Source: a virus (lineage: Duplodnaviria; Heunggongvirae; Uroviricota; Caudoviricetes). Taken from it: a stretch of 11,115 bases of DNA. The DNA lies in the IMG/VR virus record IMGVR_UViG_2923302340_000003. The stretch is one strand, 5' to 3'. Shown here piece by piece: positions 1,820 to 11,115 of this stretch; position 1 is the stretch's first letter; every line of letters begins with the position of its first letter. The notes beneath the pieces are model-generated. The model worked only from the letters and a program-made list of their open reading frames with translations. It did not search any database and was not told where the DNA came from. The translations under genes were made by a program, and so were the position numbers.

Positions 1820-2090
1820 TGGTTGACACTTTCCGGCTTAAGACCTTAATAAATCTTAATATCGCAGGTTGACACACTTGACACTTTTTCGGGAAAAACC
1901 TTAACAAAACTTAACCATCCCTGGCATTTCTAAGCATGGCAACTTGACACTTTTCGCGATTTTTTCGGCTTTTTGACGAGGTAAATCTGGCGCAAAGCCA
2001 GTAACGGCGGGGTTTACAGCGAGGTTGACACTTTTTCGCGTTCAGAGTGTAAAGTGTCAACCTGGCAAGCTGCTCAACTTGACACTTTTT
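1820..2090. repeat. Iteron array 2: seven copies of TTGACACTTTT(T)CG-like repeats (six direct, one inverted), interspersed with CTTAA/CTTAG short repeats
   Basis: TTGACAC at 1823, 1869, 1878, 1944, 2024 and 2079. Inverted copy GTGTCAA at 2054-2060. Most are followed by a T4-5 run and CG. The array sits between the HTH gene end (2095) and the small ORF start (1790). Confidence 0.6.
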
Positions 2091-3267: not shown

Positions 3268-3555
3268 TCACTGACTGCAATTTTTCGATCCAGGATATTT
3301 CCTGAATGCCTTACCATTGGGCTGATGTAATCCCATTCCGGCATGTGCCCGGCTGATGGTTTCGCGCATCTCCCCGAAATTATCCTGCTTTGCTGGTGGG
3401 CGTGCTGCCTTGCGGATACATTCCGCACGGCGCTTTGCCGCCTGTTCCCGTGCCTTGTCACCGTTCGCCAGCATAATGACCTCAGCCCACCGTTCCGCCG
3501 CTCTCCGGTACAGACCACGCGCTTCCAGTGCTTCCGCTTTGCTGTCGTGAATCAT
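3268..3555 (-). CDS. PerC-family-like transcriptional regulator (95 aa)
   Basis: The N-terminal motif AEALEARGLYRRAAERW resembles what I recall of PerC/Pch-type regulators. Start overlaps the stop of the upstream gene (ATGA). Family call is from memory, not searched. Confidence 0.5.
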   Translation of the reverse strand: MIHDSKAEALEARGLYRRAAERWAEVIMLANGDKAREQAAKRRAECIRKAARPPAKQDNFGEMRETISRAHAGMGLHQPNGKAFRKYPGSKNCSQ

Positions 3556-4094
3556 GCGCCTGTTTTCTCCTTTGCTGCCCGGCGCTGACGTTTGCGCTTC
3601 TCATTCAGCGCCACCAGCCGCGTTTCTGCGTCCTGTTGTTCCTGTGGTGTCACCTCGCCGCACGGCTGGCCTTTCAGGTCGTAGCGTACCCCACCAGCCA
3701 TTAAGGCGCGGTAATAGCGCGGACACTGCGCATAAGATGCCAGCGTCGCACGTAATGCCCCTGGCCCGAATGCCAGCCCCCTGACGGCGAGATCCTGCAT
3801 CAGGTCGTCGAATATCCCCACCTTAAGCGGCTTCGGTGCTTCCCGGCTGAATAATTCAGGCCACAACTCAGTGAGGCGGTTAACGCGCCTGCGGTTTTTG
3901 TGCTGGCGTTTGGTCATATGCCGCCACGGTGTCGCCCCTGTGGGCTTCTGCTGCGCTTTCTGGTTACCGGGCATCACTTTATGCGCCGATGTGGTTTTAT
4001 CCTGCTCCTGCGCCGCCTGCGTCGTTTTCTGCGGCGTGCCGTAAATGCCTTTAGGTTTTCTGTTAATGGTCAGCTTAGTCATGCTTTGCCCCAT
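3552..4094 (-). CDS. ProQ/FinO-domain RNA-binding protein with a basic N-terminal extension; true start may be the second ATG at 4082
   Basis: The segment LWPELFSREAPKPLKVGIFDDL...LRATLASYAQCPRYYRALMAGGVRYDLKGQPCGEV aligns by eye with the E. coli ProQ N-terminal domain (FPHCF...RPLKIGIFQDL...RVDLDGNPCGEL). Confidence 0.8.
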   Translation of the reverse strand: MGQSMTKLTINRKPKGIYGTPQKTTQAAQEQDKTTSAHKVMPGNQKAQQKPTGATPWRHMTKRQHKNRRRVNRLTELWPELFSREAPKPLKVGIFDDLMQDLAVRGLAFGPGALRATLASYAQCPRYYRALMAGGVRYDLKGQPCGEVTPQEQQDAETRLVALNEKRKRQRRAAKEKTGA

Positions 4095-4175: not shown

Positions 4176-4560
4176 CCTCACCTGCTGCACAGTGAGAATT
4201 TATGAAGTTAATAACAATATGATTTTAAATGTATTTTTAAGTACTCACTTTTTAATCCTTATATATACGCAAAAGTGAGGTAAATAGTTAAGTTTTAGTT
4301 AATATCTTGCATGGTGTGTTTTTTAACCTACCTGTTATTTTATTACCTCATTTCTATTAACTCACCATTCCTCACTTTTGTTCCTCACTTTTTATTATTC
4401 TTGTTCTGCTCCTCAGTCGTTTTCTTTATTGTTGTAATCTGTTGTTTTGCAATGTGTTTTTAACTCCTCACTTTTTGACCTATATACAGGTGAGAAAGTG
4501 AGGAAAACAGGGATGATTTTTAAATATTCCCTGCCCCCTCACTTTTACGCCTCACTTTTT
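4176..4560. repeat. Iteron array 1 (probable replication origin): CCTCACTTTT repeats in an AT-rich region immediately downstream of the replication gene
   Basis: Direct copies at 4244, 4370, 4383, 4466, 4537 and 4550. Inverted copies AAAGTGAGG at 4272-4280 and 4495-4503. Partial copies at 4176, 4346 and 4361. The last copy abuts the rep stop codon. Confidence 0.65.
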
Positions 4561-5971
4561 ACAGTGGGCGCACATCATCACCGTCAATAGCGATTACGCC
4601 GTCACCTTCCAGCTTGTACAGCCAGCGCCGGAAGTTTTTCATCTCATACCCCAGCTTTTTCATGTCATCGCGCAACAACGGAATAGTGCATTTATCTCCG
4701 CGTTGCGTGCGTGAACGGATACAGCCCCATAGTGCGGCGTGATTCTCCGTCTTGTTCCCGGCTTCCTCGATGCGCTCCAGTTCAACTGGCGGACGGGGCT
4801 TATCCTCCAGCACCAACGACGTGATTAACTCCCCGCCTTCATCCTTGAAAAGCTCAACCTCGCGCAAATCGCAAGCCATTTCTTTCAGTTCCTCCGCATC
4901 CTTCATCTTGGTACATGCGATAACCAGGGCTTCACTGCCTGCACCTTCACGGCGTATCCGGTACTCTGCATCCAGTGCTGCACGAAACGCACTGGAACCG
5001 CGCGCACCCTTTGTTTCATCCTTGCCGGAATGGTGAATTACCAGCACTGTAGCGCCTGTACGCCGTTTCAGTTCGTCACATCCATGGACAAATGCCCCCA
5101 TATCCCGCGCATCATTTTCATCGCTGCCACCAAAGCAACGCGCCAGAGTATCCAGAATAATCATGCGTACAGGTTTACCCGTTTCCTGCTCAACCTGTCG
5201 GGCAGCAATAACCATTTCATCAACATCACTCGGTGCGGCCGGAAAAATTGGACGATTTACCAGGTACAGATTTTTCACCTGCTCACTGTTCACCAGTTCC
5301 CATGCCTTGATACGACGAGGAACACCGATCCCCCCCTCACCAACGACATACATCACCGCACCATGTACAACCCTGCGACCTCCCCACGGGATACCGGTAG
5401 CAACATGACACGCCCACGAACACGCAAGGAACGACTTATAAGAACCGCTCGCACCGTATGTGCTACATAGCGAATTAGCCGGAATCACACCCTTAACCAC
5501 ATAGCTAAGCTGTGAATCGTATCCTTCCGATCCAATGCTCATTGGTAGCGTGGTTTTTCGCTGGCTGTATTGCTCGTCAGTAAGCATTTCTTCGCGCTCT
5601 GCCTGTTCGCGGATCCGTTGCAGGTAATCGCGCCAGTTCTCCGGCTCCCGGTCGGTGATGCCTTTGTATAATTTCGCCTCCTGTACGCCAGCCAGTGCCA
5701 GTTTTTCAGCGATAGCATTGATCTGGATTGGTTCGATCTCCCCCGCGAGATAGACACGCGCAAAGCGGCGTTCATCGTCGACAATGCGGATATTCGCCAG
5801 GTCTGCCAGTTGCTTTGGCCCCAGGTAAACAGGTGGTACGTTATCGCCGTGTTTTCGTCCTTCGCTTTCAATCCAGTGTTGAGCATGGGCGTAAGCATCC
5901 GTCCCGGCAAAAATGATTACCTCAGTGAATTTATCCTTCGGCTGATATTTCAAACTCGGTGCGTTTTTCAC
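4559..5971 (-). CDS. Replication protein: N-terminal TOPRIM-like region fused to a RecA-fold (RepA/DnaB-like) ATPase; putative primase/helicase
   Basis: Walker A GASGSYKS and Walker B-like MIILDTL are present. N-terminal acidic motifs (FAGTD, IVDDE) suggest TOPRIM. The start is directly adjacent to the upstream stop. Iterons lie immediately downstream. Confidence 0.8.
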   Translation of the reverse strand: MKNAPSLKYQPKDKFTEVIIFAGTDAYAHAQHWIESEGRKHGDNVPPVYLGPKQLADLANIRIVDDERRFARVYLAGEIEPIQINAIAEKLALAGVQEAKLYKGITDREPENWRDYLQRIREQAEREEMLTDEQYSQRKTTLPMSIGSEGYDSQLSYVVKGVIPANSLCSTYGASGSYKSFLACSWACHVATGIPWGGRRVVHGAVMYVVGEGGIGVPRRIKAWELVNSEQVKNLYLVNRPIFPAAPSDVDEMVIAARQVEQETGKPVRMIILDTLARCFGGSDENDARDMGAFVHGCDELKRRTGATVLVIHHSGKDETKGARGSSAFRAALDAEYRIRREGAGSEALVIACTKMKDAEELKEMACDLREVELFKDEGGELITSLVLEDKPRPPVELERIEEAGNKTENHAALWGCIRSRTQRGDKCTIPLLRDDMKKLGYEMKNFRRWLYKLEGDGVIAIDGDDVRPL

Positions 5972-6258
5972 TTCTTACCTCCCGCAACCAACATTGCCCG
6001 GATTTTTTTAATATTCGTGGCTGCACGTCTTGCCACTGCCTGTTGTTTGTTTTCAACCAGAATAAAATCACGCTCAAACTGACGGCGCGGCATTACGCAG
6101 TCATATTCGTAAGCCTCACGGCGGTAGGTGATATTGCCTGGCGTAACGTGACGAATAACCACTCGTCCCCCACGTCTGGTGTCGCGGTAAATATCGCCGT
6201 GTCTGATTTCAGGCCGAGCGGGGCCGCTGGCAGTAAAGCCAGAATTTTTCTTTTTCAT
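5968..6258 (-). CDS. Hypothetical protein (96 aa), coupled to the replication gene
   Basis: AGGAAA Shine-Dalgarno upstream of ATG at 6258. Its stop is directly adjacent to the rep start codon. Confidence 0.55.
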   Translation of the reverse strand: MKKKNSGFTASGPARPEIRHGDIYRDTRRGGRVVIRHVTPGNITYRREAYEYDCVMPRRQFERDFILVENKQQAVARRAATNIKKIRAMLVAGGKK

Positions 6259-6262
6259 GGTT

Positions 6263-6463
6263 TTATTTTCCTGTCAGCAGTTCCGGTTTTATTTCCGCAC
6301 GAATACAAAGTTCAGAAAAAAATTCAGGAGAACCAACAATCTCATTACTTTTCAGTCGGCATTGTGATTTCACTTTCCCTTTATCCAGGTAAACCAGTAC
6401 GCGTCCGGTGAAATCATCTGGCACACTCAGGGTAATTGTCATTGTTGCTTGCTGATTATCCAT
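6263..6463 (-). CDS. Hypothetical small protein (66 aa) with one copy of an FTG-x-LV...G-x-V-x-S...RL module
   Basis: 8-nt overlap with the upstream gene. Shares a motif with the 121-aa protein encoded at 6456..6821. Confidence 0.55.
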   Translation of the reverse strand: MDNQQATMTITLSVPDDFTGRVLVYLDKGKVKSQCRLKSNEIVGSPEFFSELCIRAEIKPELLTGK

Positions 6464-6821
6464 GATTCACCCCCTGAATAACCTGATAACCGCAACTGGT
6501 CAGCAATTCGATAAATTCCGGCAGTGTGCCGAAACAGCAATCATCACGCATACGTTCGCGGGATACCTCAACGCCGTTTTCGTAGTGACTCACCATGCGT
6601 CCAGTAAAATGCAGATCATCATCGTGATGGCACGTTGACGGCTTAATCAGTCGCGCACGTTCTGCCAGCTCCAGCAATGCTTCAACACTTCCGGCAATTG
6701 CACCATCCGGCAGGCGATAATTACTTACCACGCGTCCATTCTCCACATTGACCAGTAGCTGCCCGGTAAATTTCTCATCAAACTGAATGCTGTTAAGGTC
6801 AGAAATTGACAGGTTATGCAT
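6456..6821 (-). CDS. Hypothetical protein (121 aa) with two tandem copies of the same module (FTGQLLVNVENGRVVSNYRL and FTGRMVSHYENGVEVSRER)
   Basis: Strong AGGAGGTG Shine-Dalgarno 5 nt upstream of ATG at 6821. 8-nt overlaps with both neighbouring genes. Confidence 0.6.
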   Translation of the reverse strand: MHNLSISDLNSIQFDEKFTGQLLVNVENGRVVSNYRLPDGAIAGSVEALLELAERARLIKPSTCHHDDDLHFTGRMVSHYENGVEVSRERMRDDCCFGTLPEFIELLTSCGYQVIQGVNHG

Positions 6822-7179
6822 GGTGCACCTCCTGGCGAATACGGGCGGCGAATACCATCACACAGCCATCAGGAGATTGCTGGCGTGCTTCCTGTTCGCT
6901 GGTGGCCTCGATGTGAATTACGCGCGGTTGTGCCGTGCTCAGGGCGATAAAACGCCAGATAAAATTGTTCTCGCATTTCTGAATAAACAGCGTGTTTTCT
7001 TCGCGCCCTTTCCATGTTGCCGAGATATAGCCCATGTCATTGAGCATCTCGCAGGCATCCACCAGCGTATCAGCGGCTACGTGTACAGTGTTTTTACCGT
7101 CAGCCATGCAATCACGGTGCACCGCCAGGAAGGTGTATATAAATTTAGGGTGAGTTTGGGTATGCTGTGTTCCAGCCAT
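6814..7179 (-). CDS. Hypothetical protein (121 aa, MAGTQHTQTHPKFIYTF...), first gene of the replication operon
   Basis: GGAG Shine-Dalgarno 9-12 nt upstream of ATG at 7179. The track's 335-aa ORF (to 7821) is an artefactual upstream extension that crosses the divergent promoter and the opposite-strand gene. Confidence 0.55.
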   Translation of the reverse strand: MAGTQHTQTHPKFIYTFLAVHRDCMADGKNTVHVAADTLVDACEMLNDMGYISATWKGREENTLFIQKCENNFIWRFIALSTAQPRVIHIEATSEQEARQQSPDGCVMVFAARIRQEVHHA

Positions 7180-7253
7180 AATCGTTACTCCAGTTAACGG
7201 TTTGGTTAGACGCCCTGCATGTGTTGCGAGCACTGCGGGGCGTCGCTCTTTTA

Positions 7254-7305
7254 GGTGTATTTCACCTTTGCTTTTTAATTTACTCACTGGTGAAATACAC
7301 TTCAA
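7254..7305. promoter_or_regulatory. Operator-like perfect 12-bp inverted repeat GTGTATTTCACC-N22-GGTGAAATACAC overlapping a candidate minus-strand sigma70 promoter
   Basis: Left arm 7254-7265, right arm 7288-7299. Candidate minus-strand promoter: -35 TTGAAG (reverse complement of 7299-7304) and -10 TAAATT (reverse complement of 7276-7281) with 17-bp spacing. TATACT at 7331-7336 may be the -10 for the plus-strand gene. Confidence 0.5.
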
Positions 7306-7366
7306 GCCTTTTTTTATCATTTTTTTTGCGTATACTGACATACACCAATTTTTAGGAGATCCAGAA

Positions 7367-7546
7367 ATGGCAACTGGTGCAAAGAACGCAAAATCACAAA
7401 TGACAACTGTCAGAATCCCACATGAAGTAATGGATGATATTGAGCAACTTAAAGAACCTGGCGAAAGTACCGCTGGTTTTTTAGTTACTGCCGCAAAAGG
7501 CGAGATCAAACGCCGCCAGCGTCGCAAGGCCAAAGAGCAGGAGTAG
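7367..7546 (+). CDS. Small protein (59 aa, MATGAKNAKSQMTTVRIPHEVMDDIEQLKEPGE...) divergent from the replication operon; candidate regulator
   Basis: AGGAG Shine-Dalgarno 7-11 nt upstream of ATG at 7367. Basic C-terminal tail. The track ORF 7202..7546 has an implausible N-terminal extension. Confidence 0.5.
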   Translation: MATGAKNAKSQMTTVRIPHEVMDDIEQLKEPGESTAGFLVTAAKGEIKRRQRRKAKEQE

Positions 7547-7767
7547 TTGATCAGCACCGGACGACCAGAAAAAATTGCATCAGTCGCGCCACCAGCAGTA
7601 TTTTTTGCTTTCCGGACAGCGTGGCCAACGGCATTTTGCAGCAAAATATTCTGCATTTCTGGCGTGCTGTAGAAACGGTGATCAGCGCCTTCACATTGAA
7701 CGAACTTGTCGCTAAAATTCACCCACATAGCAAACATCGCGGTGCTGTAGGTAATTCGTTCACAAAG

Positions 7768-7798
7768 GCGCTCCGGCAACGGGGCGCTTTTTCTTTTT
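7768..7798 (+). terminator. Strong rho-independent terminator (plus strand), possibly weakly bidirectional
   Basis: GCGCTCCG (7768-7775) pairs with CGGGGCGC (7780-7787) around a GCAA tetraloop. This is an 8-bp stem with one G-U pair, followed by TTTTTCTTTTT (7788-7798). Confidence 0.7.
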
Positions 7799-7813
7799 GT
7801 AACGGTCAGAGCG

Positions 7814-8614
7814 TTACACATGGCTGTTTTCCTCCATGCGACGGGCTAACCAACGCTGCGAAAGACGAATTAATTCAGCTTTCCGCTGGTGGTAGTCCTG
7901 GCCTAACTCAATCAGCGTGATATTGCTCTGCTCAAGGTAAGAAAGGTGCTCAAGCTGCAACGTGCTCATGTGGTCGCGTGGTTCGCCTGTGATGCCGTTC
8001 GCCTGCGCCCACTGTTTTGCAGTCATGCCACCCAGCACGATACGCGCCAGCATATTGGCTTCCGTGGTGTAGTGGTGCTGGAACGTGTTTTTACCCAGTT
8101 CAGCCCGGTACGCCTCCAGCGCGGCGCACATCGGCTTAAAGTAACTGGCAACGGTGATACGGGCTTTCAGTTCCCGGCGTAACGCTGCGGAACGAACAGG
8201 CGCTACCTTGTGTAGCTCCTCCTCGCATTTGATGAAGTACTGACGAACGGCGCGGCCCTGTTCGGTGCGTTCGACCATCGCCAGTTCTTTCGCCATGTTC
8301 ACGGTAATGATGTACTCAAGAGCTGTTTGCTGGCGAGATTTTGCGCTCACCGGATCGGGTCGGCTCAAATATTCAACAACCTCATAATCCACGCCTTCCG
8401 TGAAGCCGTATTCTTCAATGCGCCCCTTGATCCACGAACGGAAAACGCGACCTACACCTAACGCCTTATGCAACGCTCTGGCGCTAACAATATTGGTTTC
8501 ACACCCGCCAATAATGCCGGAAATAACCGGGATAATTTCGCCGAAATTTTGCAGATTCTGGTTTTCAGGCCGAACGAAGCCCTGCCCCTGTACGGGCGTT
8601 TTTCGCAGTTTCAT
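7814..8614 (-). CDS. Phage antirepressor-like protein (AntA-type N-terminal domain)
   Basis: The N-terminal region SARALHKALGVGRVFRSWIKGRIEEYGFTEGVDYEV resembles the AntA antirepressor domain pattern, recalled from memory. 266-aa ORF. Confidence 0.65.
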   Translation of the reverse strand: MKLRKTPVQGQGFVRPENQNLQNFGEIIPVISGIIGGCETNIVSARALHKALGVGRVFRSWIKGRIEEYGFTEGVDYEVVEYLSRPDPVSAKSRQQTALEYIITVNMAKELAMVERTEQGRAVRQYFIKCEEELHKVAPVRSAALRRELKARITVASYFKPMCAALEAYRAELGKNTFQHHYTTEANMLARIVLGGMTAKQWAQANGITGEPRDHMSTLQLEHLSYLEQSNITLIELGQDYHQRKAELIRLSQRWLARRMEENSHV

Positions 8615-8691: not shown

Positions 8692-8919
8692 TCAGGCTGA
8701 TGTGTTTCGGCGTTCTTCCAGCCAGCGATTAATCTCTACCGCATCGAATGCAGTGCTTTTCTCACCCAGTTTGATGGGCTTAGGCATCTTCCCGCTACGC
8801 ACCCAACGATCGAGCGTTGATAAGCTGGTACCCAGCAATTCAGCCAGGCGATAGCGGCGGATATAGCCAGTTGCAGGGATTGCGGTTTGAAGTATTGGTT
8901 GGTTTTTCATATGCCCCAT
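8692..8919 (-). CDS. alpA: AlpA-family phage transcriptional regulator (about 72-75 aa)
   Basis: Motif RYRLAELLGTSLSTLDRWVRSGKMPKPIKLGEKSTAFDAVEINRWL matches the AlpA/Vis-type pattern. The track ORF start at 9003 is an extension. Likely start is ATG at 8919 or 8910. Confidence 0.75.
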   Translation of the reverse strand: MGHMKNQPILQTAIPATGYIRRYRLAELLGTSLSTLDRWVRSGKMPKPIKLGEKSTAFDAVEINRWLEERRNTSA

Positions 8920-9022
8920 TACCTTTGTTGTTGGTTTGTGATTCGTAATAGGGGCATTAAATAACAAATGAAATGATGTGTGTGTGAGTTTTAGAAAAAA
9001 CACTGTGACTTTTCTTATTTCA

Positions 9023-9805
9023 CTATCTAAAACGCTCTCGCCAGCTTTTCCAAGTGTTCTTATCTGGTTGTGGGATTACAATGCCTTTTTGAGCACCTAT
9101 TTGTGCAATTTTTTTATTTAACTTGTTAGGCGGCAAAGATATTATCTCATTGTCTGTTAATCCGGCAATTCTTAATAATCCATATATCATTTTAAATTGA
9201 TGTATTGTTAATCTTGGTAACTTGTGATTTTCTTTTTTTATAGTGTTGTTTATGGAGTAAATTGGAAATCCATTTGTTATTGATTTATAAAGGTTGTCAA
9301 TGTGCTCTCTGGTTATTAATAATGAATCAGGTGTAATCTTAATGTTGCCGCTTGTTTTTGCATGGCATGAAAAAATAAATGTGGGATTCGCAGTGCGACG
9401 TGAAAGCGGTATGGATGTATTCATAGAGATAGTTTTGTTTCTTACTATAGTCTCTTGAATATCAAAAACTCCAGAAACCTTTGCCTCAAAAATAACACCA
9501 TTTTCTTTTATTTCATCACTATATTCATGAATAATTATGCCAAGAGAGGAAATTTCTTTTTTGATGAGAAAAGAAATAAAATCAATATAGTCTTCATCCT
9601 TTGGCCATGTAAAATCACGATAACCAAAATACCCCTCACAGTAAGCATTTTTTATTTTTGTGGCAAAATTAATTCTGTTAATATCCTGCCAATGCCATAA
9701 ATCATCTATTTCACATTCTAAAATTTGAGCTGCTCTATCTAAAGAGCAGAATTCTAATGGAGGTAATTGTTTTTTTTGCCATATTGTTTCATTAATATTT
9801 GTCAT
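9023..9805 (-). CDS. AT-rich orphan hypothetical protein (260 aa) inserted between int and alpA; candidate cargo gene
   Basis: Uninterrupted ORF in a block that is clearly more AT-rich than the flanking int and alpA genes. Asn/Ile/Lys-rich. No recognisable motif. Confidence 0.65.
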   Translation of the reverse strand: MTNINETIWQKKQLPPLEFCSLDRAAQILECEIDDLWHWQDINRINFATKIKNAYCEGYFGYRDFTWPKDEDYIDFISFLIKKEISSLGIIIHEYSDEIKENGVIFEAKVSGVFDIQETIVRNKTISMNTSIPLSRRTANPTFIFSCHAKTSGNIKITPDSLLITREHIDNLYKSITNGFPIYSINNTIKKENHKLPRLTIHQFKMIYGLLRIAGLTDNEIISLPPNKLNKKIAQIGAQKGIVIPQPDKNTWKSWRERFR

Positions 9806-9861: not shown

Positions 9862-11115
9862 TTATTTATTAGATTGCGTGATGTCAGAACATATCATGTT
9901 TTCTAAATTCACCAGCAAATCAGTCCACTGTGCCAGCGCCGCTTTGCGCTCATCAAAATATTGATGGCGGTTATAAATGCCCTCTACGCCTTTTATGCGG
10001 TGGTTAAGGCATCGTTCAGCAACGATCGGGTCAACTCCCAATGCTGCTAAATGTGTTCGTGCTGTTCGCCGGAAGTCGTGAATTGTAAAGTTGGGGACGT
10101 TCGGCATTTCTGCTCTGACTTTTGCCAATGCAACAGGAAGGGTGCTTTCCTGGATGTGAGGGATCATTCTGTGCTGCATTTTTCTGGCAGGTAATACCCA
10201 TGCGCTATTGCATGAAAATGTGTGCAATTCTCGCAACCATTCTATGGTCGCTGGTGGTAATGGTATGTCGATAGCATCGCCATTTTTAGTTCGTTGTTCT
10301 GGTAGATGCCAAATCGCGCCATCTAAGTCGAATTCATCCCACCTGGCGGCGCATAATTCCATTTTTCTGACACACAATGCTAAGAGCAACTTAAAGGTTA
10401 ATTCGTTCTGGCGGCTGAATCCTTTGGCTTTACGCATGGCCTGAAAAAATTGGATTAATTCGTCACGGTTCAGCCAGCGATCACGAGATAATTCTTTCCC
10501 ACCAGCATCTGATACTTCAAAAGCTGAGCAGGGGTTAACCTCCAAAGCAAGGCGTTTAATACCGTAGTCAAATATTCGACGTGTCCACCGAAGAACGTCA
10601 GTAGCAATTGTTGGAGCGCCTCTATCAACAATGCTTTTAAGCATGGCATCAATATGGCGTGGTTTTACATCTTCAACCTTCATGTGGCCTATGGCAGGAT
10701 TTATGTCTTTATCAATGCGCCTGCGGAGAATATCTGGGTGTTTCCATCGGGGAAGTATTTGCCGTGCAAAGTATTCGGCGGCAAGTTCAGAAACATGCAG
10801 CGCGTTTTTTTCAGCTTCTATTTTTGCCAGTGCTTCGGCTTTACGCTGCTGTTTTTCTGCGGCTACGTCATATCCCAAAGCAACTCGTGCGGAAAGTTCT
10901 TTTGCCAGTTCCCTGGCTTTTGATAACGATAATTCAGAATATGAACCAATAAGCATGGCACGAGATTTTCCCGCCAGTTTATATCGAAACCGCCATGTCG
11001 GGGATCTATCCACCTCTCTATACCGGAGATATAGCCCACCACCATCAGCACGACCTTCGAAATGTTCTCCGGCTTTTATCCATGCGCGGATCTGCATATC
11101 TGTGAGTTTTGGCAT
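9862..11115 (-). CDS. int: P4-type tyrosine integrase (417 aa), apparently full length
   Basis: N-terminus MPKLTDMQIRAW...GGGLYLRY is typical of P4-family integrases. C-terminal catalytic motifs HDFRRTARTHL and EGIYNRHQY (Tyr nucleophile) are present. Confidence 0.9.
   Translation of the reverse strand: MPKLTDMQIRAWIKAGEHFEGRADGGGLYLRYREVDRSPTWRFRYKLAGKSRAMLIGSYSELSLSKARELAKELSARVALGYDVAAEKQQRKAEALAKIEAEKNALHVSELAAEYFARQILPRWKHPDILRRRIDKDINPAIGHMKVEDVKPRHIDAMLKSIVDRGAPTIATDVLRWTRRIFDYGIKRLALEVNPCSAFEVSDAGGKELSRDRWLNRDELIQFFQAMRKAKGFSRQNELTFKLLLALCVRKMELCAARWDEFDLDGAIWHLPEQRTKNGDAIDIPLPPATIEWLRELHTFSCNSAWVLPARKMQHRMIPHIQESTLPVALAKVRAEMPNVPNFTIHDFRRTARTHLAALGVDPIVAERCLNHRIKGVEGIYNRHQYFDERKAALAQWTDLLVNLENMICSDITQSNK

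What the first reader, a model, noticed from the sequence alone, without database searches (positions are those of the whole stretch)
7179..7546. Divergent genetic switch with a perfect 12-bp inverted-repeat operator
GTGTATTTCACC-N22-GGTGAAATACAC lies between the start of the replication operon and a divergent 59-aa gene. One arm falls inside the spacer of a candidate -35/-10 pair for the replication operon. This looks like the element's lysogeny-maintenance or induction switch, with the small protein or AlpA as candidate operator binder.
Basis: partly seen in the sequence, partly recalled or inferred. Interest (0 to 1): 0.5.

Follow-up and report, generated by a model that had tools for sequence, protein, structure and literature searches.

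The report
Three-site repressor switch of a phage satellite
The inverted repeat is real and is two of three binding sites for a small, previously uncharacterised repressor-like protein that most likely keeps a phage-parasitising island's replication genes switched off, with an antisense RNA next to it as a probable second lock.

Summary
GTGTATTTCACC (7255-7266) and GGTGAAATACAC (7289-7300) are perfect inverted copies, and chance is unlikely (2 of 20,000 shuffles of the intergenic region).

The inverted symmetry is not the conserved feature. The unit is an 11-bp site, GTG-N5-CAC, present three times:
- O1 (7255-7265) and O2 (7290-7300) bracket the -10 of the leftward promoter PL, which drives the icd-like gene and then the replication genes.
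- O3 (7335-7345) abuts the -10 of the promoter of the divergent 59-aa gene.

In 54 related loci from many Enterobacterales, and in the prototype island EcCICFT073, the three sites of a locus match each other. They differ between loci in about 20 classes. O1 is direct in about half of the classes.

The site class tracks residues 12 and 14 of the 59-aa YlcI/YnfO-family protein, whose predicted fold is ribbon-helix-helix. AlpA, the Icd-like protein and the replicase do not track it.

Best reading: an autoregulated ribbon-helix-helix repressor with a tripartite operator, a candidate for the repressor not yet identified in Gram-negative PICIs. Binding and repression are inferred, not shown.

At 7174-7252 the same region also holds a SymR-like antisense RNA candidate that covers the icd-like ribosome-binding site.

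The parts
7255..7265 (.). Operator site O1 (GTGTATTTCAC, the reverse complement of GTGAAATACAC). It lies about +5 to +16 of the leftward promoter PL.
   Evidence: It matches O2 with 0-1 mismatches in the 9-mer core in 52 of 54 related loci.
7277..7282 (-). PL -10 hexamer (TAAATT on the - strand), lying between the two arms.
   Evidence: A TAnnnT hexamer 17-18 nt from the -35 is kept in 50 of 50 distinct related sequences. Not tested experimentally.
7290..7300 (.). Operator site O2 (GTGAAATACAC). This is arm 2 of the repeat. It fills the -35-proximal part of the PL spacer, and its last base is the last base of the -35 hexamer.
   Evidence: It sits at a fixed position, -77 from the ylcI ATG, in all canonical loci.
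7300..7305 (-). PL -35 hexamer (TTGAAG on the - strand; TTGACG in many relatives).
   Evidence: 4-6 of 6 matches to TTGACA in 50 of 50 distinct sequences.
7331..7336 (+). PR -10 hexamer TATACT, the promoter of the 59-aa gene. No recognisable -35 precedes it.
   Evidence: Nearly invariant, and at a fixed distance (-36) from the ATG across loci.
7335..7345 (.). Operator site O3 (CTGACATACAC). It overlaps the last 2 nt of the PR -10 and the predicted transcription start. It is systematically imperfect, starting CTG instead of GTG.
   Evidence: O3 versus O2 mismatches in the 9-mer core across 54 loci: 0 in 23, 1 in 26, 2 in 4, 3 in 1.
7367..7546 (+). ylcI-like gene encoding a 59-aa YlcI/YnfO-family protein, the predicted ribbon-helix-helix repressor. 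SD GGAG lies at 7355-7358.
   Evidence: - NCBIfam NF041551: 64 bits against a cutoff of 30.
- AF2 model with pLDDT 88.
- Residues 12 and 14 covary with the operator core.
7174..7252 (+). Candidate SymR-like cis-antisense RNA, about 77-80 nt:
- outer helix 7175-7178 / 7203-7206;
- stem-loop I 7183-7187 / 7195-7199, with the anti-SD CTCC (7188-7191) in the loop;
- terminator stem-loop II 7209-7223 / 7231-7244;
- T run 7247-7252.
It is complementary to the SD, the start codon and the 5' UTR of the icd-like mRNA.
   Evidence: - Rfam symR, full-length but below threshold: 26.3 bits here and 36-40 bits in four relatives.
- Covariation: 97.8% of cells paired, 16 of 23 pairs compensatory, 0 of 500 shuffles as good.
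- The + strand fold is the more stable in 69 of 71 loci. There are 117 G.U cells on the + strand against 3 that would be G.U on the - strand.
- MFE -37.8 kcal/mol, z -4.7.
- It aligns with K-12 symR.
7161..7166 (+). Predicted -10 (TATGCT) of the antisense-RNA promoter, inside codons 5-7 of the icd-like gene. A weak -35-like TATAAA lies at 7138-7143.
   Evidence: - TAnnnT is kept in 67 of 71 distinct loci, including loci whose leftward gene is unrelated.
- It aligns with TAGAAT, which lies 7 nt upstream of the annotated 5' end of K-12 symR.
6814..7179 (-). First gene of the leftward operon. The 121-aa protein has a C-terminal Icd-like (host cell division inhibitor) domain. It is followed by small ORFs, DUF4222 and a RepA-type helicase (4559-5971).
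   Evidence: NCBIfam NF033153 E 4.7e-23, Pfam AAA_25 and DUF4222, and RefSeq annotation of near-identical loci.
7764..7791 (+). Intrinsic terminator-like hairpin with a T run, probably the end of the ylcI transcript. It is weaker in the - direction, downstream of the antA-like gene.
   Evidence: Only the terminator segment is conserved outside L002.

Best explanation
The window is a Gram-negative PICI-type phage satellite. On the - strand it carries int, orf260, alpA, an antA-like gene, then an icd-like gene, small ORFs and a RepA-helicase replication operon, followed by ProQ and PerC genes. The two arms of the inverted repeat are operator sites O1 and O2. They belong to a set of three 11-bp GTG-N5-CAC sites recognised by the divergently encoded 59-aa YlcI/YnfO-family protein, which has a ribbon-helix-helix (Arc/Mnt/CopG-like) fold.

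Proposed mechanism:
- YlcI bound at O2 (in the PL spacer, touching the -35) and at O1 (just downstream of the -10) blocks RNA polymerase at PL. This keeps the icd-like/replication operon silent.
- YlcI bound at the weaker O3, which overlaps the -10 and start site of its own promoter PR, gives negative autoregulation.
- A SymR-like antisense RNA is transcribed from inside the icd-like gene and ends right next to O1. It pairs with the ribosome-binding site and start codon of the icd-like mRNA. This would be a second, post-transcriptional lock on a potentially toxic first gene.

Shown here:
- the sites, their geometry and their family-wide conservation;
- the concerted change of the three sites within each locus;
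- the match between site class and YlcI residues 12 and 14;
- the predicted fold;
- the RNA covariation and its strand bias.

Inferred:
- that YlcI binds the sites, and that binding represses;
- that the RNA is expressed;
- how repression is lifted. Two ideas remain open: AlpA-driven read-through that runs against ylcI, or an antirepressor.
For: 1. Three sites and no more. GTGAAATACAC occurs with 0, 0 and 2 mismatches at 7255, 7290 and 7335. The other hits with 2 mismatches or fewer (5) are no more than chance gives (3.4 expected).

2. Fixed geometry in 54 loci from Escherichia, Yersinia, Pectobacterium, Hafnia, Xenorhabdus, Serratia, Morganella, Dickeya and others.
- O2 abuts the PL -35.
- O3 abuts the PR -10.
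- O1 lies 22-25 or 35 bp from O2, centre to centre.

3. PL is conserved. TTGAnn, 17-18 nt, TAnnnT is present in 50 of 50 distinct sequences.

4. Concerted evolution of the sites.
- Within a locus, O1 versus O2 mismatches in the 9-mer core are 0 in 33 loci, 1 in 19 and 2 in 2.
- Between loci whose beta-strand residues differ at 3 or more positions, the mean is 3.9 of 9. Four of the nine positions are invariant or nearly so.

5. The specificity tracks YlcI.
- Loci with identical residues 11-15 have near-identical operators (mean 0.47 mismatches over 171 pairs), although the flanking DNA and the genera differ.
- There are 21 beta-strand classes.
- Residues 12 and 14 carry the highest mutual information with the variable bases. 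This i, i+2 pattern is what a DNA-facing beta strand would give.
- The partial Mantel test that controls for the rest of the protein gave 0 of 2000 permutations as high.

6. Out-of-sample check on E. coli loci L079-L083 and EcCICFT073.
- The QQLNA (L081, L083) and QALKA (EcCICFT073) beta strands carry exactly the sites already seen with the same beta strands in other genera.
- QLTTV (L079, L080, L082) is a new beta-strand class. It carries the core seen with the nearest class, QLFTV in L020.

7. Other candidate binders do not track the operators.
- L002 has the same operators but an AlpA only 28% identical.
- L004, L005 and L012 have the same operator class but Icd-like proteins only 37-39% identical.
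- The QQLNA class occurs with a TOPRIM/DUF927 replicase in L081 and with a primase-family replicase in L083.

8. Fold.
- The AF2 model has pLDDT 88.
- hhalign places R16-x-P18-x-E20-V21 on Arc R13-W-P15-R-E17-V18.
- A G32-E33-S34 turn precedes helix B.

9. Literature. [quoted passage not shown]
Against: - There is no binding or expression experiment.
- Sequence methods do not place YlcI in any ribbon-helix-helix family. Pfam gives no hit at E<0.01. The best PDB sequence hit is E 0.26. Foldseek is not significant. hhalign against Arc gives a probability of only 11%.
- The monomer model does not show the beta strand.
- Protein and operators are about 100 bp apart, so part of their correlation is simple co-inheritance. 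Operator distance correlates with the rest of the protein as well.
- PR has no recognisable -35.
- AlpA over-expression alone induces EcCICFT073, which carries this module (PMC6092414). Any YlcI repression can therefore be overridden, and YlcI may not be the 'master' regulator.
Confidence: 0.75

Rival explanations
1. AlpA, the known activator of Gram-negative PICIs, binds the inverted repeat and activates or represses the replication operon.
For: AlpA is an HTH DNA-binding protein encoded 1.4 kb away. It is required for PICI induction (PMC6092414).
Against: Operators identical to the window's occur with an AlpA only 28% identical (L002). In many Xenorhabdus loci the integrase match lies 0.6-0.8 kb from ylcI and no AlpA-like match was found between them. 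Sites inside the spacer and at the start of PL are repressor positions, not activator positions.
Confidence: 0.03
2. The inverted repeat acts as a nucleic-acid hairpin (terminator, attenuator or cruciform) rather than as protein-binding sites.
For: The arms can pair. The scan flags 7253-7267 as a weak terminator-like hairpin.
Against: O1 and O2 are direct repeats in about half of the specificity classes. O2 lies upstream of the PL start and so is not in that transcript. A third copy sits at PR. The arm-to-arm distance varies between 22 and 35 bp.
Confidence: 0.03
3. The repeats are iterons, that is, origin sites for the island's replication initiator.
For: Repeated 11-bp sites lie next to a replication operon. 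PICIs have iteron-type origins (PMC6092414).
Against: One and the same operator class occurs with unrelated replicases: RepA helicase, primase family and TOPRIM/DUF927. The sites are positioned to the base on the -35 and -10 hexamers of two promoters. A separate iteron cluster (TTGACACTTT, at least six copies) exists at 1820-2090.
Confidence: 0.03
4. YlcI binds the sites but is mainly an activator of its own promoter, or a Cro-like lytic regulator, rather than the maintenance repressor. PL would then be controlled chiefly by the antisense RNA and by AlpA read-through.
For: PR lacks a -35, and O2 is centred about 48 bp upstream of the predicted PR start, an activator-like position (inference). 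AlpA alone induces EcCICFT073.
Against: O1 and O2 bracket the PL -10, and O3 covers the PR start. Both are classic repressing positions. The gene sits on the integrase side and points away from the replication operon, as maintenance repressors do.
Confidence: 0.1
5. A host or helper-phage factor, not an island protein, recognises the sites.
For: None directly. Helper-encoded inducers of PICIs are known to exist.
Against: At least four different site classes coexist within E. coli alone (window, L079, L081, CFT073). A single host factor cannot explain that. The class follows the adjacent YlcI beta strand. No YlcI relative was found in 50,697 phage records.
Confidence: 0.04

Closest known systems
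Phage P22 immI region: Arc and Mnt ribbon-helix-helix repressors on the overlapping divergent promoters Pant/Pmnt, plus the sar antisense RNA (from my own knowledge of the system)
   Same: - A small ribbon-helix-helix repressor is encoded divergently from the operon it represses.
- The operators overlap the promoter hexamers.
- The motif R-x-P-x-E-V at the strand/helix junction aligns with Arc.
- An antisense RNA covers the ribosome-binding site of a downstream gene.
- An Ant-type gene is nearby.
   Different: - No significant sequence homology to Arc or Mnt.
- Three separate 11-bp sites instead of one 21-bp operator.
- The controlled operon is icd-like plus replication genes, not ant.
- The antA-like gene is in another operon.
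- The element is a satellite, not a phage.
SymE/SymR type I toxin-antitoxin of E. coli K-12 (Rfam RF01809; PMC4147584)
   Same: - A roughly 77-nt RNA is transcribed from inside the first codons of the target gene. It is antisense to the SD and the start codon.
- The matches cover the full length of the Rfam symR model.
- The two-hairpin architecture matches the model's structure, and K-12 symR shares sequence blocks (TGTGATTAG, GTGTTGG..GCAC) in the alignment.
- A repressor operator lies immediately beyond the RNA's 3' end.
   Different: - Scores of 26-40 bits are below the Rfam gathering score of 61.
- The target is an Icd-like protein, not SymE.
- The operator is a YlcI site where K-12 has a LexA-box-like CTGT-N8-CAG (with my own knowledge that symE is LexA-controlled).
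- This RNA has a T run after stem-loop II, whereas K-12 does not.
- Expression was not tested.
Stl/Rpr master repressors of SaPIs and other Gram-positive PICIs (PMC6092414)
   Same: The repressor gene sits between the integrase module and a divergent replication operon of a phage satellite. The proposed role is to keep the island quiescent.
   Different: - Stl/Rpr are larger and, from my own knowledge, HTH-type repressors inactivated by helper proteins. YlcI is a 59-aa ribbon-helix-helix protein.
- ylcI is convergent with int, not co-oriented with it.
- Induction in Gram-negative PICIs goes through AlpA.
- No inducer is known for YlcI.
Lambda CI with the tripartite OR operator
   Same: There are three related sites across divergent promoters. 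One weaker site lies on the repressor's own promoter, which suggests graded occupancy and autoregulation.
   Different: - A different fold (HTH).
- No Cro-type counter-repressor was identified.
- The spacing and orientation of sites vary between classes.
- Cooperativity is unknown.
FinP/FinO of F-like plasmids
   Same: A two-hairpin antisense RNA lies against the RBS of the first gene of an operon. The island encodes a ProQ/FinO-domain protein (3552-4094).
   Different: No evidence that the ProQ-like protein binds this RNA. Whether related islands carry a ProQ/FinO gene was not examined.

Membership tests
YlcI/YnfO family (NCBIfam NF041551) | Score above the curated cutoff of the family HMM | tested here: met
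   64 bits against a cutoff of 30, E 9.2e-18, residues 9-50. RefSeq names the same protein YlcI/YnfO family protein.
Ribbon-helix-helix (Arc/MetJ/CopG) DNA-binding proteins | Beta-alpha-alpha fold | tested here: met
Ribbon-helix-helix (Arc/MetJ/CopG) DNA-binding proteins | Sequence match to a curated ribbon-helix-helix family or to a solved ribbon-helix-helix protein | tested here: not met
   No Pfam hit at E<0.01. Only weak DUF7557 and PSK_trans_fac hits appear. The best PDB sequence hit is 3no7 at E 0.26. hhalign against Arc gives E 0.003 but a probability of 11%.
Ribbon-helix-helix (Arc/MetJ/CopG) DNA-binding proteins | G-x-S/T/N turn before helix B, and alternating DNA-facing residues in the N-terminal strand | tested here: met
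   G32-E33-S34 is conserved. Residues 12 and 14 carry the highest mutual information with operator bases, and R16 is invariant.
Ribbon-helix-helix (Arc/MetJ/CopG) DNA-binding proteins | Dimerisation through an antiparallel two-stranded sheet inserted in the major groove | not testable with these tools
   This needs a complex prediction (dimer plus DNA) or an experiment.
Gram-negative PICI (phage-inducible chromosomal island) | int, alpA and a primase/replicase module in one orientation, with no phage structural or lysis genes | tested here: met
   Pfam identifies an integrase, Phage_AlpA and an AAA_25 RepA-type helicase, with ProQ, PerC and DUF3800 as accessory genes. The same module is present in the prototype EcCICFT073. 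One caveat: the 188-aa gene at 2095-2661 gives a weak terminase-small-subunit match in PHROGs (phrog_57, E 3.6e-8).
Gram-negative PICI (phage-inducible chromosomal island) | att sites and helper-phage-dependent excision, replication and packaging | not testable with these tools
   The window ends inside the element, no tRNA or att site lies in it, and induction is experimental.
SymR antitoxin RNA (Rfam RF01809) | Covariance-model score at or above the gathering threshold (61 bits) | tested here: not met
   26.3 bits in the window (E 0.0023, full-length 1-77). Scores are 35.9-40.4 bits in L049, L031, L007 and L025. There was no hit at the gathering threshold.
SymR antitoxin RNA (Rfam RF01809) | Cis-antisense position over the SD and start codon of the adjacent gene, a promoter inside that gene, and a two-hairpin structure | tested here: met
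   The position follows from the sequence itself. The structure is supported by covariation and strand bias. The predicted -10 and start align with the region just upstream of, and the annotated 5' end of, K-12 symR. Expression was not tested.
Lambda-type bistable cI/cro switch | A second, counteracting DNA-binding regulator as the first gene of the lytic operon, binding the same operators | tested here: inconclusive
   The first leftward gene is Icd-like. Its similarity does not follow operator class. PHROGs label the Icd-like families 'transcriptional repressor', but that is an annotation only.

The most novel reading that the evidence does not exclude
The YlcI/YnfO-family ribbon-helix-helix protein is the missing maintenance (immunity) repressor of Gram-negative PICIs, including the prototype EcCICFT073. 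It has diversified into 20 or more operator specificities through changes at two beta-strand residues, so that co-resident satellites are hetero-immune. Induction would work by AlpA-driven transcription running head-on through ylcI into PL, or by an antirepressor. A SymR-type antisense RNA would guard the toxic Icd-like first gene.
Probability: 0.4. Interest if true: 0.75.

Novelty: new member of a known kind. Interest (0 to 1): 0.62.

Why it matters
Gram-negative PICIs are widespread. The 251-bp query spanning this control region matched 1473 of 5426 complete E. coli genomes, 471 of them over at least 80% of the query. Only an activator, AlpA, is known for them, and the founding paper says that whether a repressor exists is unclear.

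This analysis gives three things:
- a concrete candidate repressor, in a protein family that had no assigned function;
- its operators mapped to the base on two promoters;
- a natural set of about 20 repressor/operator pairs that reads like a recognition code, with residues 12 and 14 set against the N5 core.

The same module is present in the experimentally tractable EcCICFT073. Simple deletions, reporters and EMSAs could therefore settle how these islands stay silent and how AlpA overrides that. The orthogonal 59-aa repressor/11-bp operator pairs could also be useful parts for synthetic biology.

The SymR-like RNA links a chromosomal type I toxin-antitoxin system to satellite control regions.

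Tried and rejected
- Rfam at gathering thresholds on the window and on 20 loci found nothing at this site. Only tRNA and int-alpA RNA appeared elsewhere. C4 and isrK, which are the P4-type immunity RNAs, were not found.
- A PDB sequence search with two profiles gave no significant hit. Foldseek against the PDB was not significant. Pfam on the protein, the alignment and distant members gave no ribbon-helix-helix family.
- tblastn of YlcI against 50,697 phage records gave no match.
- The tool's promoter scan lists neither PL nor PR. They are supported only by conservation.
- I first took the conserved TAnnnT inside the icd-like gene to be a consequence of the conserved peptide motif TQT[RH]PK. 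It remains partly confounded by coding. I kept it because it persists in loci with unrelated leftward genes and aligns with the region upstream of K-12 symR.
- The region 7547-7763 downstream of ylcI was searched for the small ORF that follows ylcI in other E. coli islands. No homologue was found, and the region is conserved only in L002.
- Hairpin/cruciform, iteron, AlpA and host-factor explanations were rejected for the reasons given under the rival explanations.
- Literature searches for YlcI/YnfO, DUF3950, ribbon-helix-helix with satellites, and EcCICFT073 with repressor found no description of this module.
Full report
**1. The observation**

GTGTATTTCACC (7255-7266) and GGTGAAATACAC (7289-7300) are perfect reverse complements separated by 22 nt. 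A perfect 12-nt inverted repeat with a spacer of 40 nt or less appears in 29 of 1000 dinucleotide-preserving shuffles of the whole window. It appears in only 2 of 20,000 shuffles of the 187-nt intergenic region.

The repeat lies between the ATG of a leftward gene (7179, - strand) and a divergent 59-aa gene (7367-7546, +; SD GGAG at 7355-7358).

**2. Context**

Pfam and NCBIfam and RefSeq annotation of a 94-98% identical E. coli locus identify a Gram-negative PICI-type satellite. The genes are:

| Coordinates | Strand | Gene or product |
|---|---|---|
| 9862-11115 | - | integrase |
| 9023-9805 | - | orf260 |
| 8692-9003 | - | AlpA |
| 7814-8614 | - | AntA-like protein |
| 7367-7546 | + | 59-aa YlcI/YnfO-family protein (NF041551, 64 bits) |
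| 6814-7179 | - | Icd-like protein |
| 5968-6821 | - | small ORFs (6456-6821, 6263-6463) and DUF4222 (5968-6258) |
| 4559-5971 | - | RepA-type AAA_25 helicase |
| 3552-4094 | - | ProQ/FinO-domain protein |
| 3268-3555 | - | PerC |
| 2095-2661 | - | HTH / small-terminase-like protein |
| 1-762 | + | DUF3800 protein |

The published Gram-negative PICI model has AlpA as activator. [quoted passage not shown]

**3. A third site and a promoter map**

The motif occurs a third time as CTGACATACAC at 7335-7345. Further hits in the window with 2 mismatches or fewer (5) are no more than chance gives (3.4 expected).

- On the - strand, -35 TTGAAG (7305-7300), a 17-nt spacer and -10 TAAATT (7282-7277) form the leftward promoter PL.
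- O2 (7290-7300) fills the spacer and shares its last base with the -35.
- O1 (7255-7265) lies about +5 to +16.
- On the + strand, TATACT (7331-7336) is the -10 of the promoter PR of the small gene.
- O3 overlaps the last two bases of that -10 and the predicted start.

**4. Comparative evidence**

A profile of the 59-aa protein retrieved 77 loci from GTDB species representatives. Six more loci came from E. coli genomes, including the prototype island EcCICFT073.

The layout is constant. A replicase, then other genes, then an icd-like or other first gene are read leftward from PL. ylcI is read rightward from PR and converges on AlpA/HTH and int.

In 54 loci with canonical spacing:
- O2 ends one base inside the PL -35, at -77 from the ylcI ATG.
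- The PR -10 lies 30 nt further on.
- O3 follows it directly.
- O1 lies 22-25 or 35 bp (centre to centre) from O2.

PL is kept in 50 of 50 distinct sequences, as TTGAnn with 4-6 of 6 matches, 17-18 nt, then TAnnnT. Where the O1-O2 distance is 22-25 bp, O1 abuts the PL -10 just as O3 abuts the PR -10.

**5. Concerted evolution and specificity**

Each site is GTG-N5-CAC. The N5 core (with one flanking base) differs between loci but is the same in the three sites of one locus.
- O1 versus O2 mismatches in the 9-mer core: 0 in 33 loci, 1 in 19, 2 in 2.
- O3 versus O2 mismatches: 0 in 23 loci, 1 in 26, 2 in 4, 3 in 1.
- O1 is inverted relative to O2 in the window class and in nearly half of the other classes. 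It is direct in the remaining 11 of 21 classes.

The site class follows residues 11-15 of YlcI, giving 21 classes. Examples:

| Residues 11-15 | Site |
|---|---|
| QMTTV | GTGAAATACAC |
| QLTTV, QLFTV | GTGAAACACAC |
| QQLNA | GTGAATCGCAC |
| LQVSV | GTGAACACCAC |
| KKLEA | GTGTCAGCCAC |
| QALKA, QSLKS | GTGTGGCCCAC |
| QSVTA | GTGTCTTACAC |
| QKMSA | CTGGCACCCAG |

Statistics:
- Pairs of loci with identical residues 11-15 differ at a mean of 0.47 operator positions.
- Pairs that differ at 3 or more of these residues differ at a mean of 3.9 positions.
- Residues 12 and 14 carry the most mutual information with the five variable bases. That is the i, i+2 periodicity expected for the DNA-facing side of a beta strand.
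- A partial Mantel test that controls for divergence of the rest of the protein is significant (0 of 2000 permutations). The rest of the protein correlates too, as linkage predicts.

Out-of-sample loci behaved as expected. E. coli L081 and L083 (QQLNA) carry GTGAATCGCAC, and EcCICFT073 (QALKA) carries GTGTGGCCCAC at O1 and O2. In both cases the site is the one already seen with the same beta strand in other genera. L079, L080 and L082 (QLTTV) form a new beta-strand class. They carry the core seen with the closest class, QLFTV in L020.

L083 shares the window protein's C-terminal tail but has a different strand and different operators, so it is a mosaic.

**6. Who binds?**

- AlpA is excluded as the specificity determinant. 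L002 has identical operators and an identical YlcI but an AlpA only 28% identical.
- The Icd-like protein is excluded. The same operator class occurs with proteins only 37-39% identical.
- The replicase is excluded. One operator class occurs with TOPRIM/DUF927 or with primase-family enzymes.
- A host factor cannot explain four classes within E. coli.

**7. Fold of YlcI**

- AlphaFold2 on a 19-sequence alignment gives pLDDT 88, with an extended N-terminus and helices 19-28 and 35-58.
- hhalign puts R16-I-P18-H-E20-V21 on Arc R13-W-P15-R-E17-V18. A G-E-S turn precedes helix B.
- Sequence-only methods do not reach any ribbon-helix-helix family.
- The family is small, with 89 clusters at 50% identity among 1.84 billion representatives. 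It was not found in 50,697 phage records.

**8. A second layer: an antisense RNA**

A GC-rich hairpin (7209-7244) lies immediately left of O1. It is conserved in nearly all loci and carries many compensatory changes.

It is a + strand element:
- It is more stable as + strand RNA in 69 of 71 loci (mean -22.4 against -16.6 kcal/mol).
- The 10 nt on its 3' side contain 5.3 T on average on the + strand, against 1.4 on the - strand.
- 117 aligned cells are G.U on the + strand, against 3 that would be G.U on the - strand.

RNAalifold on 40 sequences predicts an outer helix, stem-loop I with the anti-SD CTCC in its loop, and stem-loop II as a terminator. Of the cells, 97.8% are paired, 16 of 23 pairs have changes on both sides, 0 of 500 shuffles reach this, and slid controls give 34-49%.

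The 79-nt + strand RNA folds at -37.8 kcal/mol (z -4.7). The - strand folds at -25.5 kcal/mol.

A focused Rfam search gives a full-length but sub-threshold match to SymR (RF01809):
- 7174-7247 in the window, 26.3 bits, E 0.0023.
- 36-40 bits at the equivalent place in four relatives.
- The gathering score is 61, so this is not a member by Rfam's rule.

Alignment with K-12 symR shows several correspondences:
- Blocks of shared sequence.
- The annotated SymR 5' end falls on window position 7174.
- TAGAAT, 7 nt upstream of the annotated symR 5' end, falls on TATGCT (7161-7166).
- K-12 has a LexA-box-like CTGT-N8-CAG exactly where this island has O1.

The TAnnnT hexamer is kept in 67 of 71 loci, including loci with unrelated leftward genes. 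SymR blocks symE translation by covering its SD and start codon (PMC4147584). The same geometry holds here for the icd-like gene.

Expression is untested. I put this part at about 0.65-0.7.

**9. Mechanism proposed**

- YlcI dimers occupy O1 and O2 and occlude PL.
- At higher concentration they occupy the imperfect O3 and limit their own synthesis.
- The antisense RNA blocks translation of any icd-like mRNA that escapes.
- PR has no -35, and O2 is centred about -48 from its predicted start. Activation of PR from O2 is therefore possible but speculative.

How the switch is flipped is unknown. AlpA over-expression alone induces EcCICFT073, which carries this module. I therefore favour AlpA-driven transcription from the alpA operon reading through the weak - strand face of the 7764-7791 terminator. 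That transcription would run against ylcI and into PL. An antirepressor is the alternative. An AntA-like gene lies directly downstream of alpA here but is absent in CFT073.

**10. Comparison and novelty**

Mechanistically this is an Arc/Mnt-type ribbon-helix-helix repressor/operator module combined with a SymR-type antisense RNA, placed where SaPIs carry Stl. Both kinds of regulator are known, so I rate it a new member of a known kind.

What is new:
- a functional assignment for the YlcI/YnfO family;
- a base-level map of a control region that current Gram-negative PICI models lack;
- its presence in the prototype island;
- the natural series of matched repressor/operator specificities.

No paper in the searched library describes it.

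Noticed in passing
window 1820-2090: There are at least six copies of TTGACACTTT: 1823, 1868, 1876, 1944, 2025 and 2079 on the + strand, and an inverted copy at 2052-2063. They include the only other perfect 12-nt inverted repeat of the window (2022-2034 / 2051-2063). The cluster lies between a small - strand ORF (1611-1790) and the HTH / small-terminase-like gene (2095-2661). It looks like an iteron cluster, so an origin or packaging site.
   Followed up: partly
window 7174-7252 (+), promoter-like -10 at 7161-7166: A SymR-like two-hairpin antisense RNA candidate covers the SD and start codon of the icd-like gene. It shows strong covariation and + strand bias. The Rfam symR match is full-length but below threshold.
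   Followed up: yes
L085 (E. coli CFT073, NC_004431.1 1380473-1381052): The prototype Gram-negative PICI EcCICFT073 carries the same ylcI / operator / icd-like module: O1 = O2 = GTGTGGCCCAC and O3 = CTGTCCCCCAC. Their locus tags (C_RS30120, C_RS30125) fall outside the numbering series of the neighbouring genes.
   Followed up: yes
L086 (E. coli K-12, NC_000913.3 4579835-4579960): Downstream of the symR 3' end, K-12 has a LexA-box-like CTGTATATATCATCAG at the position that O1 occupies in the satellite. This suggests the same toxin-leader/antisense cassette placed under two different repressors.
   Followed up: partly
window 3552-4094 (-): A ProQ/FinO-domain protein is encoded in the island, next to PerC. 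It could be a chaperone for the antisense RNA, by analogy with FinP/FinO. Nothing was tested.
   Followed up: no
window 7547-7763: About 220 nt between the ylcI stop and the + strand terminator (7764-7791) have no conserved ORF and are conserved only in the closest relative, L002. Other E. coli islands carry a 57-aa ORF there, and this window has no homologue of it.
   Followed up: partly
L021, L026, L030 and L076 (about 5.1-6.0 kb, - strand): The Rfam int-alpA RNA motif (RF02996) is found above its gathering score in four related islands (41-49 bits), but it is not found in this window.
   Followed up: no
window 6814-7821 (-): A 335-aa open frame runs antisense through ylcI and the whole control region, in frame with the icd-like gene. 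No homologue supports it. Homologues and the SD support the 7179 start, so this is most likely a chance open frame.
   Followed up: partly
L067-L078 (Serratia, Gilliamella, Xenorhabdus, Pasteurellaceae): Distant YlcI relatives (28-41% identity, strand motif xIRFP) keep the same three-site layout, but with 12-bp GTG-N6-CAC sites such as the palindrome GTGTTTAAACAC.
   Followed up: partly
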